NCBI RefSeq assembly: GCF_003334255.1
Contig: NZ_QOWU01000287.1
Source: Escherichia coli
GTDB lineage: Bacteria; Pseudomonadota; Gammaproteobacteria; Enterobacterales; Enterobacteriaceae
Direction: 5' to 3' (one strand)
DNA length: 200 nt
Shown one piece after another: positions 130 to 189 of the stretch. Position numbers and translations under genes: made by a program. Numbering within the stretch: position 1 is the first letter of the stretch; each line of letters starts with the position of its first letter. Under the pieces are notes generated by a model. That model saw only the letters and a program-made list of their open reading frames with translations. It ran no database searches and was not told the DNA's origin.

Positions 130-170
130 TCTTATGACCTTTGTCAAATATTGAGCCCAAAAAGACCTTA

Positions 171-189
171 CGCAGCTCCGGGAGCTTCG
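171..189. repeat. 19-bp imperfect palindrome CGCAGCTCC-G-GGAGCTTCG; function unknown
   Basis: Pairing positions i and 360-i: 171/189 C-G, 172/188 G-C, 173/187 C/T mismatch, 174/186 A-T, 175/185 G-C, 176/184 C-G, 177/183 T-A, 178/182 C-G, with 179-181 as the loop or centre. As RNA this is an 8-position stem (7 pairs, 1 mismatch) with a 3-nt loop. On the minus strand it is followed, after a 7-nt spacer, by T5 (complement of nt 159-163). Confidence 0.45.

What the first reader, a model, noticed from the sequence alone, without database searches (positions are those of the whole stretch)
156..189. GC-rich palindrome with adjacent T5 on the minus strand: hairpin or binding site
Nt 171-189 form a 19-bp imperfect palindrome in 60% GC sequence (nt 166-200). 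On the minus strand the hairpin is followed by TAAGGTC and then TTTTT (complement of nt 159-163), and minus frame a ends with TAA (complement of nt 168-170) right after the palindrome, preceded by only ten visible codons (PRYNEAPGAA). This could be a non-canonical intrinsic terminator or the 3' end of a convergent minus-strand gene; the 7-nt spacer is longer than typical. A dyad-symmetric protein-binding site is an alternative reading.
Basis: seen in the sequence. Interest (0 to 1): 0.3.

Follow-up and report, generated by a model that had tools for sequence, protein, structure and literature searches.

The report
Stem-loop in ISEc45 right-end tail
The flagged palindrome is a small, evolutionarily conserved stem-loop in the non-coding right end of ISEc45, a known RNA-guided insertion sequence that has jumped into another insertion sequence's transposase gene; it is neither a gene end nor a standard terminator, and its own role is untested.

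Summary
The context changes its meaning. Window 1-129 is an IS66-family transposase gene (TnpC residues 433-475). It is cut at nt 129/130 by a nested, oppositely oriented copy of ISEc45, an IS110-family, IS1111-group element. Window 131-200 is the last 70 nt of ISEc45's right end: tip AAG, subterminal inverted repeat (134-142), outward -35 TTGACA (142-147), then the palindrome. The ISEc45 transposase stops about 183 nt beyond the window. Between that stop and the palindrome lies a covarying bridge RNA/seekRNA whose loops match the element's own target and ends. The "PRYNEAPGAA*" frame is a 27-codon artefact. The hairpin is weak (-8.5 kcal/mol, energy z about 0 in context). No terminator is called, and the T5 is not conserved. 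Relatives nevertheless keep a helix at the same position with different sequences and compensatory changes, which argues against a sequence-specific protein site. Best reading: a structural stem-loop in the 3' trailer of the transposase-bridge RNA transcript; this function is inferred, not shown. The element is already catalogued, so interest is low.

The parts
1..129 (+). 3'-truncated IS66-family (ISEc43-like) transposase gene tnpC, frame 1, residues 433-475 of 537 (…DNNAAERALRAVCLGKKN). This is the target interrupted by the nested element.
   Evidence: Annotation of full-length matches. 42/43 residues identical to ISEc43 TnpC 433-475. Alignment to an uninterrupted copy diverges after nt 129/130.
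129..130 (.). Insertion junction and core dinucleotide: CT on the + strand, AG in transposase orientation. It is shared by the target and both element ends, so the exact crossover cannot be assigned within it.
   Evidence: Empty site GGAAAGAAAAAT|TACGTG compared with the occupied site. AG is present at both junctions across the family.
131..133 (-). Right-end terminal extension AAG of ISEc45, outside the subterminal repeat.
   Evidence: invariant in 12 aligned relatives.
134..142 (-). Right-end subterminal inverted repeat AAAGGTCAT. Its partner ATGACCTTT lies 6-7 nt inside the left end (L001 5562-5570).
   Evidence: invariant in relatives.
142..147 (-). Outward-facing TTGACA, the candidate -35 half of a promoter completed only when right and left ends are joined in the excised circle (TTGACA-17 nt-TATGAC, TGG before the -10).
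   Evidence: TTGAC(A) is conserved immediately 5' of the right-end repeat in nearly all relatives. Junction geometry. No sigma70-like promoter inside the integrated element. Function is inferred by analogy with ISEc11 and IS621 (PMC11187229, PMC11208160).
148..169 (-). It is A/T-rich next to the -35 and poorly conserved.
   Evidence: The T5 is present only in ISEc45 copies; relatives have AGGAYAAGTACGG… or other sequence there.
170..190 (-). The flagged palindrome. Read on the minus strand it is a stem-loop with a 7-bp base helix (5' arm ACGAAGC = nt 190-184, 3' arm GCTGCGT = nt 176-170, central A.G mismatch) and an ISEc45-specific apical part, TCCCGGA (183-177).
   Evidence: fold. (pair conservation and compensatory changes). 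(fixed position). (the arm has decayed in an isolated right-end remnant, L118).
191..200 (-). Start of the poorly conserved linker that leads 5'-wards to the bridge RNA/seekRNA domain. That domain lies wholly beyond the window, at window-equivalent 210-368 (L001 4210-4368).

Best explanation
Shown: window nt 130/131-200 are the last 70 nt of the right end of ISEc45. ISEc45 is an IS110-family, IS1111-group insertion sequence of about 1,447 bp that encodes a DEDD RNA-guided transposase. This copy is inserted in the opposite orientation, without target duplication, after the Asn-475 codon of an IS66-family tnpC gene. Read in transposase orientation (minus strand), the element runs: left end, tnp (377 aa), a roughly 170-nt covarying bridge RNA/seekRNA domain, a roughly 20-nt linker, the flagged stem-loop, a 22-nt spacer, -35 TTGACA, subterminal repeat AAAGGTCAT, tip AAG. 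The two internal loops of the RNA domain match the element's own target and ends. A stem-loop at this position is a conserved feature of the whole clade: its position and pairing are kept while its sequence is free. Inferred: because pairing rather than sequence is conserved, the stem-loop most likely acts as nucleic-acid structure, most plausibly in the transposase-sense transcript. There it would be a 3' trailer hairpin that helps define or protect the 3' end of the tnp-bridge RNA transcript. It might also insulate the adjacent junction-promoter -35 from read-through. It is not a guide-bearing part of the bridge RNA, not a canonical Rho-independent terminator, and not a gene end. The confidence given is for the whole statement: roughly 0.95 for the context, 0.8 for a conserved helix, and 0.35 for the proposed RNA 3'-trailer role.
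For: Context: full-length matches annotate a truncated IS66 tnpC followed by an ISEc45 transposase on the minus strand, and the exact boundaries come from an empty site. The transposase hits NF033542, 'IS110 family RNA-guided transposase', at 278 bits against a cut-off of 140, and carries PF01548 and PF02371. ISEc45 is listed as IS1111 group with the bridge RNA predicted in the right end in the supplement of Durrant et al. 2024. Bridge RNA: RNAalifold on 12 relatives gives 28 pairs, 10 with compensatory changes, and two internal loops. The left-target guide equals the element's own left flank plus core in 8 of 12 elements and differs at one base in the other 4, with CGTAG, ACCAG and GCCAG versions tracking different flanks. 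In the right-target guide, A pairs only with T, while G pairs with C or T. The donor guide ATCATC goes with left end GATGAT and ACCAT with GATGGT. Hairpin: 84% paired with 3 of 7 pairs changed on both sides on an unfitted alignment, against 10-47% paired in slid controls. On the fitted family alignment it is 88% paired with 7 of 7 pairs changed on both sides. Ten independent sequence variants form a hairpin whose centre varies by SD 2.6 nt, against 6.7 expected, and the pooled structure z is -4.4, or -2.6 without the strongest member. G.U cells outnumber A.C cells 5 to 1, and the sense strand is the more stable in 9 of 10 close-clade variants. An isolated right-end remnant has lost the pairing.
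Against: The function is not demonstrated. For ISEc45 itself the hairpin is weak (-8.5 kcal/mol), and its context folds no better than shuffles. Antisense z-scores equal sense z-scores, and the G.U excess disappears in distant members and is confounded by G+T content, so the acting strand is unresolved. No U-tract follows the stem in relatives, so termination of the classical kind is unlikely. In ISEc11 a ribozyme-ended 82-nt seekRNA works better than the long form, and cargo inserted 46 bp from the end is tolerated (PMC11187229). Such a tail is therefore dispensable for transposition in over-expression assays. The close relatives share ancestry, which inflates the position and covariation statistics, and alignment A4 is fitted to the model.
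Confidence: 0.5

Rival explanations
1. The hairpin together with the downstream T5 is a non-canonical intrinsic terminator that ends the minus-strand transposase-bridge RNA transcript.
For: It has the right strand and the right place, 3' of tnp and of the bridge RNA domain and before the element end. A GC-rich stem of -8.5 kcal/mol and a T5 lie within 12 nt. Some distant relatives have T-rich runs just after their hairpin, such as GGCCTTTTGAGG and GGCTTAACTTTTTGC.
Against: The consensus terminator scan finds nothing in the window or the non-coding region. A 7-nt spacer separates the stem from the T5. Close relatives that conserve the helix have AGGAYAAGTACGG or similar instead of a U-tract. 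Selection therefore acts on the helix and not on a helix-plus-U-tract unit.
Confidence: 0.12
2. The palindrome is a dyad-symmetric DNA binding site for the ISEc45 transposase or a host protein, and is part of right-end recognition.
For: It lies in the right end, 40-60 bp from the tip, near the subterminal repeat. Energy statistics are strand-symmetric.
Against: A protein site should conserve its half-site sequence. Here the arms are unrelated in sequence between elements with 68-87% identical transposases, and they change in a compensatory way. Stem length varies from 5 to 14 bp and loop length from 3 to 10 nt. Known donor recognition in this family uses RNA guides plus the subterminal repeats (PMC11208160, PMC11187229).
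Confidence: 0.08
3. The hairpin has no function. It is a spacer of roughly fixed length in which short GC-rich palindromes arise and persist by descent.
For: ISEc45's own folding z-score is about 0. The palindrome is only a 3% event in shuffles of the window. The region is the least conserved part of the non-coding end. The equivalent region is experimentally dispensable in ISEc11.
Against: Compensatory double changes appear on an unfitted alignment. Independent sequence variants fold at the same position (P about 0.0015). The pooled structure signal is z = -4.4. Pairing has been lost in a decaying remnant.
Confidence: 0.2
4. The TAA at nt 168-170 is the stop codon of a convergent minus-strand protein-coding gene.
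For: Ten open codons are visible in the window.
Against: The frame is closed 27 codons upstream and is not the transposase frame. The real minus-strand gene ends at window-equivalent 383-385. The region aligns as non-coding, with indels, among relatives.
Confidence: 0.01

Closest known systems
IS1111-group insertion sequences with a right-end seekRNA/bridge RNA (ISEc11, ISPa11, ISKpn4; Siddiquee et al. 2024, PMC11187229; Durrant et al. 2024, PMC11208160)
   Same: DEDD transposase; 9-10-bp subterminal inverted repeats; a short left end and a long non-coding region 3' of tnp; no target duplication; sequence-specific target; an RNA with the top-strand-complementary segment 5' of the bottom-strand-complementary segment; a -35 in the right end suited to a circle-junction promoter. 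ISEc45 itself is listed as IS1111 group with the bridge RNA in the right end.
   Different: The transposase is 377 aa, longer than the 330-350 aa quoted for IS1111-type enzymes. Nothing about ISEc45 has been tested experimentally. As far as I could find, the conserved stem-loop between the RNA domain and the -35 is not mentioned in those papers.
IS621 bridge RNA system (IS110 group)
   Same: Two internal loops, each carrying two guide segments for the left and right halves of target and donor around a core dinucleotide.
   Different: In IS621 the RNA is in the left end, upstream of the recombinase, and the subterminal repeats are only 2-3 bp. Here the RNA is downstream of tnp, and the core is AG in transposase orientation.
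Rho-independent (intrinsic) terminators
   Same: A GC-rich stem-loop 3' of a transcription unit, with a T run nearby in ISEc45.
   Different: The T run is 7 nt from the stem and is not conserved; the scan calls no terminator.
ISEc21 (IS110 family) targeting the DDE-motif codons of IS3-family transposase genes (PMC11187229)
   Same: An RNA-guided IS whose target is a conserved motif inside another IS family's transposase gene.
   Different: The target here is the G(R/K)KN|(W/Y) codons of IS66-family TnpC, and the element is IS1111-type with a 3' RNA.

Membership tests
IS110 family, IS1111 group (ISEc45) | DEDD (RuvC-like) transposase with the IS110-type C-terminal domain | tested here: met
   NF033542 at 278 bits (cut-off 140), E 8e-83. 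PF01548 and PF02371 are on record for near-identical proteins. PGAP names it an ISEc45-family transposase.
IS110 family, IS1111 group (ISEc45) | Subterminal inverted repeats of 7-17 bp set back a few bases from each end | tested here: met
   (T)ATGACCTTT / AAAGGTCAT(A), 9-10 bp, lies 6-7 nt from the left tip and 3-4 nt from the right tip.
IS110 family, IS1111 group (ISEc45) | The longer non-coding region lies downstream of tnp (right end longer than left end) | tested here: met
   253 nt 3' of the stop codon versus 61 nt 5' of the start codon.
IS110 family, IS1111 group (ISEc45) | Site-specific insertion without target-site duplication | tested here: met
   Comparison of empty and occupied sites. 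In 29 of 33 family members the right end abuts …G(R/K)KN of an IS66 TnpC exactly at the junction.
IS110 family, IS1111 group (ISEc45) | [quoted passage not shown] | tested here: met
   Met in silico: covarying structure and guide-flank co-variation. Expression of the RNA and its binding to the transposase cannot be tested here.
IS110 family, IS1111 group (ISEc45) | Circular intermediate with a promoter assembled at the right end-left end junction | not testable with these tools
   The sequence is compatible: TTGACA-17-TATGAC with an upstream TG, and no internal promoter-like site.
Intrinsic (Rho-independent) terminator | Stable GC-rich stem-loop | tested here: inconclusive
   -8.5 kcal/mol, 8 pairs with an internal mismatch. 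This is at the weak end for terminators.
Intrinsic (Rho-independent) terminator | U-tract beginning within about 0-2 nt of the stem | tested here: not met
   A 7-nt spacer (UAAGGUC) precedes the U5. There are zero terminator-like sites in the window and the non-coding region. The U-tract is absent in relatives.
Dyad-symmetric protein-binding site (operator-like) | Half-site sequence conserved among orthologous elements | tested here: not met
   The arms differ in sequence between relatives while pairing is kept.
3' end of a protein-coding gene | A long open reading frame ending at the stop codon | tested here: not met
   The frame is open for 27 codons only.

The most novel reading that the evidence does not exclude
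The position-conserved, sequence-free stem-loop between the bridge RNA domain and the right-end -35 may be a dedicated, previously undescribed module of IS1111-type bridge systems. One possibility is a 3'-end-forming or insulating element that sets bridge RNA and transposase levels and stops read-through from occluding the circle-junction promoter. If so, it would be a design feature worth copying or removing when these recombinases are engineered.
Probability: 0.25. Interest if true: 0.35.

Novelty: already known. Interest (0 to 1): 0.15.

Why it matters
The result mainly corrects an annotation. What looked like a possible terminator or gene end in anonymous sequence is the right-end tail of a catalogued insertion sequence nested inside another one. 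The window straddles an IS-in-IS junction, and the bridge RNA lies just outside it. The one detail that appears to be undescribed is that this clade keeps a stem-loop at a fixed position between the bridge RNA and the junction-promoter -35. If that stem-loop affects RNA 3' ends or promoter insulation, it would be of practical interest to people engineering IS1111-type bridge recombinases, but it is a small refinement of a known system.

Tried and rejected
- Rfam 15, with permissive thresholds, on the window and on the whole element: only chance-level hits (Xist_exon1 E 4.1, pemK E 7.4). No curated family covers this RNA.
- Folding-energy z-scores of the palindrome in context on both strands: about 0 for ISEc45, so energy alone neither supports nor refutes it.
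- A first 68-nt family interval gave only mean z -0.67 and no strand bias. A tighter 50-nt interval with one representative per variant was more informative.
- Strand assignment by energy difference and by G.U counts: suggestive in the close clade, reversed in distant members, and confounded by G+T content. Left unresolved.
- A metagenome scan with the invariant donor-loop core GATCCCCGAATAAGAGT gave 17 loci. Only 3 were real elements and only 1 was new (L104); the rest were chance matches.
- RNAalifold on the 12-sequence MAFFT alignment found no consensus helix in the tail, because distant hairpins do not align by sequence. This was resolved with the close-relative alignment A3 and the covariance model R1.
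- Fetching ISEc11 (CP053751.1) for a direct layout comparison failed because the record is not in the collections.
- The seekRNA paper's supplements give no RNA end coordinates as text.
- Literature search for ISEc45: only mobile-element inventories.
- The + strand promoter-like hit at nt 56-84 lies inside the IS66 coding sequence and was not pursued.
- The sequence adjoining the Klebsiella copy truncated at the palindrome centre is a common plasmid segment with no informative annotation.

Full report
**1. The observation**

Nt 170-190, ACGCAGCTCC-G-GGAGCTTCGT, form an inverted repeat with 10-nt arms, 9 of 10 complementary. GC of nt 166-200 is 0.60. On the minus strand the hairpin is followed by UAAGGUC and U5 (complement of 159-163), and a minus frame reads PRYNEAPGAA-TAA. 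A palindrome this good occurs in 3.2% of dinucleotide shuffles of the window. As RNA the isolated hairpin folds at -8.5 kcal/mol on the minus strand and -8.0 on the plus strand. In 43-70-nt contexts it is no more stable than shuffled sequence, with z between +0.7 and -1.0. A consensus scan calls no terminator.

**2. What the window is**

Frame 1 of the + strand translates to …DNNAAERALRAVCLGKKN and then loses sense. Full-length DNA matches at 97-97.5% identity in E. coli chromosomes and plasmids show the reason. They annotate an IS66-family (ISEc43) tnpC "missing C-terminus" that ends at window nt 129. It is followed by an ISEc45 (IS110-like) transposase on the minus strand, and the rest of tnpC resumes about 1.45 kb further on.

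Window codons 1-43 are 98% identical to TnpC residues 433-475 of 537. Alignment with an uninterrupted ISEc43 copy gives the empty site GGAAAGAAAAAT|TACGTGTTC. It places the inserted element at window 130/131 to L001 5576/5577, about 1,447 bp, with no target duplication and one or two bases shared between the junctions. The window differs from L001 only at nt 78, 84, 85, 87 and 129. All of these are in the IS66 part; nt 130-200 are identical.

**3. Anatomy of the inserted element, read on the minus strand**

- The left end is (AG)ATGGT-ATGACCTTT.
- tnp encodes 377 aa. It hits NF033542, "IS110 family RNA-guided transposase", at 278 bits against a cut-off of 140, and carries PF01548 and PF02371.
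- A 253-nt non-coding region follows the stop codon.
- The right end is …TTGAC-AAAGGTCAT-AAG(AG).

In window coordinates the parts are:
- tip AAG: 131-133
- subterminal inverted repeat: 134-142
- outward TTGACA: 142-147
- T5 run: 159-163
- palindrome: 170-190

Subterminal repeats, a long non-coding region 3' of tnp, no duplication and a specific target define the IS1111 group (PMC11187229; PMC11208160). The supplementary table of Durrant et al. lists ISEc45 as IS1111 group with the predicted bridge RNA in the right end.

The tnp stop lies at window-equivalent 383-385.

**4. The bridge RNA/seekRNA lies just outside the window**

I collected relatives of the transposase from genomes and metagenomes. 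An alignment of 12 non-coding regions, from elements whose proteins are 66-87% identical, shows a strongly conserved central domain. Its consensus fold has 28 pairs, 10 of them with compensatory changes. In ISEc45 this domain spans L001 4368-4210, which is window-equivalent 210-368, and the single-sequence fold has z = -2.4.

The domain has two internal loops. In the first loop:
- One side (TGCA-NNNAG) equals the element's own left flank plus core. It reads CGTAG in ISEc45 next to CACGTA|G, ACCAG in L097 next to CAACCA|G, and GCCAG in most others next to CAGCCA|G. The match is perfect in 8 of 12 elements and one base off in the other 4.
- The other side (…AA(A/G)AAYT) is the complement of the right flank. 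Guide A is always opposite T, and guide G is opposite C or T, as G.T wobble allows.

In the second loop:
- One side carries A(C/U)CAU(C), complementary to the left-end extension. ATCATC goes with GATGAT and ACCAT with GATGGT.
- The other side carries the invariant GAAUAAGAGU, which equals the right-end tip plus core.

The segment complementary to the top strand lies 5' of the segment complementary to the bottom strand, as reported for IS1111-type seekRNAs. This is computational evidence only. No Rfam family matches.

**5. The target**

In 29 of 33 family members with a recognisable right end, the flank on the opposite strand translates to …(I/E)DNNxxE(R/N)…G(R/K)KN and ends exactly at the junction. 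The left flanks are the reverse complement of (W/Y)(L/V)F codons. The whole clade, found in Enterobacteriaceae, Vibrio, Nitrosomonas, Rhizobium, sphingomonads and metagenomes, therefore inserts after the Asn codon of the conserved GRKN|WLF motif of IS66-family transposases. ISEc45's guide is retargeted to the GKKN|YVF variant of ISEc43. This parallels the published case of ISEc21, which targets IS3-family DDE codons.

**6. The flagged palindrome in this frame**

The palindrome lies 3' of the bridge RNA domain, about 20 nt after its closing stem and 22 nt before the -35 hexamer. This is the least conserved part of the non-coding end. Several lines of evidence bear on it.

*Unfitted alignment.* On a MAFFT alignment of 7 close relatives, the 7-bp base helix (minus-strand ACGAAGC/GCTGCGT) is 84% paired. 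Three pairs change on both sides: A-U/G-C at the outer pair, G-C/A-U, and C-G/U-A. The central A.G mismatch becomes C-G in one subgroup. The covariation score is 0.259 against 0.131+-0.038 in shuffles, reached by 0 of 500. Sliding the partner columns drops pairing to 10-47%.

*Model-based alignment.* A covariance model built from that alignment finds the right-end tail in 30 places. On the resulting alignment the helix is 88% paired, all 7 pairs show changes on both sides, and covariation is 0.272 against 0.082+-0.015. This alignment is fitted to the model and many cells are gaps, so it is supportive rather than independent evidence.

*Independent variants.* Ten sequence variants include a perfect 14-bp stem in L104, UGCCC/GGGCA in L094 and CUCAGA/UCUGAG in L097. 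All place their dominant hairpin at nearly the same distance from the -35: SD 2.6 nt against 6.7 in shuffles, P about 0.0015. The pooled folding z is -4.4, or -2.6 without L104. Shared ancestry among the four closest members inflates these figures.

*Decay and truncation.* An isolated 76-nt right-end remnant in an E. coli plasmid has lost the pairing. A set of Klebsiella and Enterobacter plasmid copies is truncated at the palindrome centre.

**7. What the palindrome is not**

- *A gene end.* Refuted.
- *A canonical intrinsic terminator.* No site is called in the window or the non-coding region. The U5 begins 7 nt after the stem. Relatives that keep the helix have purine-rich sequence there, such as AGGAYAAGUACGG, rather than a U-tract.
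- *A sequence-specific protein-binding palindrome.* This is unlikely, because the arms are free to change as long as they pair.

**8. What the palindrome most likely is**

Selection on pairing rather than sequence points to a nucleic-acid structure. Its place is at the 3' end of the tnp-bridge RNA unit and immediately upstream of the -35. That -35 would, after circle formation, combine with the left end to give TTGACA-17 nt-TATGAC preceded by TG. The integrated element contains no promoter-like site, which matches what was reported for ISEc11.

I therefore favour a 3' trailer stem-loop of the transposase-sense transcript. It would help form or protect the RNA 3' end, or insulate the junction promoter from read-through.

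The strand is not settled. G.U cells outnumber A.C cells 5 to 1, and the sense strand is more stable in 9 of 10 close variants. Antisense z-scores are similar, however, and the bias vanishes in distant members. In ISEc11 the short, ribozyme-ended seekRNA works better than the long one, and cargo inserted 46 bp from the end is tolerated. Such a tail is therefore not required for the recombination chemistry. A neutral spacer remains a serious rival, at about 0.2.

**9. Verdict**

It is wrong on the gene end and unsupported on the terminator and the protein site. The element is a catalogued IS of a recently well-described RNA-guided class, so novelty is low. The only apparently undescribed detail is the position-conserved tail stem-loop, whose function awaits RNA end mapping and compensatory mutagenesis.

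Noticed in passing
window 1-130; L001 4001-4130 and 5577 onwards: The window straddles an IS-in-IS junction. An IS66-family tnpC gene (TnpC residues 433-475) is split after Asn-475 by ISEc45 in the opposite orientation, and the rest of tnpC resumes about 1.45 kb further on.
   Followed up: yes
family-wide: L006-L024, L085-L123 right and left flanks: The whole ISEc45 clade inserts at the same codons of IS66-family transposase genes (…DNN..ER..G(R/K)KN | (W/Y)(L/V)F). This holds in 29 of 33 elements, from Enterobacteriaceae, Vibrio, Nitrosomonas, Rhizobium, sphingomonads and metagenomes. An RNA-guided IS is specialised on a conserved motif of another IS family.
   Followed up: yes
L001 4291-4307 and relatives (alignment A2 columns 97-108 and 51-62): Natural retargeting of the guide. 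ISEc45 carries CGTAG where most relatives carry GCCAG and L097 carries ACCAG, each matching its own left flank. In the right-target guide, A pairs only with T, while G pairs with C or T, a wobble signature of RNA-DNA pairing.
   Followed up: yes
window 129: The window has C at nt 129, giving an AG core at the right junction, where the closest E. coli matches have T (AA). Nt 78, 84, 85 and 87 also differ, while nt 130-200 are identical. This copy therefore sits in a different IS66 variant from those in the best database matches. No full-length match exceeds 97.5% identity in the complete E. coli genomes or PLSDB.
   Followed up: partly
window 142-147 (minus strand) with L001 5560-5577: An outward-facing TTGACA sits immediately before the right-end repeat and is conserved across the family. 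Joined to the left end it gives TTGACA-17 nt-TATGAC with an upstream TG. No sigma70-like promoter is found inside the integrated element (0 found, about 2 expected by chance).
   Followed up: partly
L116 (MK649828.1, Klebsiella plasmid) 1501-1701, with H102-H105: Several Klebsiella and Enterobacter plasmid copies of ISEc45 are truncated at NCR position 202, the centre of the flagged palindrome (…AACGAAGCTCC|TCATGCAGTGACG…). The adjoining sequence is a common plasmid segment with no informative annotation. Whether the palindrome is a breakpoint hotspot is unknown.
   Followed up: partly
L118 (NZ_CP010126.1) 1501-1576: An isolated 76-nt ISEc45 right-end remnant with no transposase, next to an IS66 fragment, in which the 3' arm of the hairpin has decayed (GGAGCTGCGT to GGATGTGCTT).
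   Followed up: no
tail just 3' of the hairpin: window 160-169 (minus strand) and the equivalent in L088, L092, L010, L104, L117, L120: Many relatives have an AGGAYAAGU(A/U)… motif just after the helix that resembles the right-end tip CATAAG|AGT. ISEc45 has UAAGGUC there, which resembles its own subterminal repeat AAAGGUCAU. This may be a vestigial or secondary end-like motif; it is unexplained.
   Followed up: no
window 56-84 (+ strand): A promoter-like match (ATGACG-17-AATAAT, 9 of 12) lies inside the IS66 tnpC coding sequence. It is most likely a chance match.
   Followed up: no
window 89-96 and 117-124; 13-21 and 188-196: Short direct repeats (CGGAAAGA twice; CGGTATATC and CGTTATATC). These two-copy 8-9-mers are consistent with chance.
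   Followed up: no
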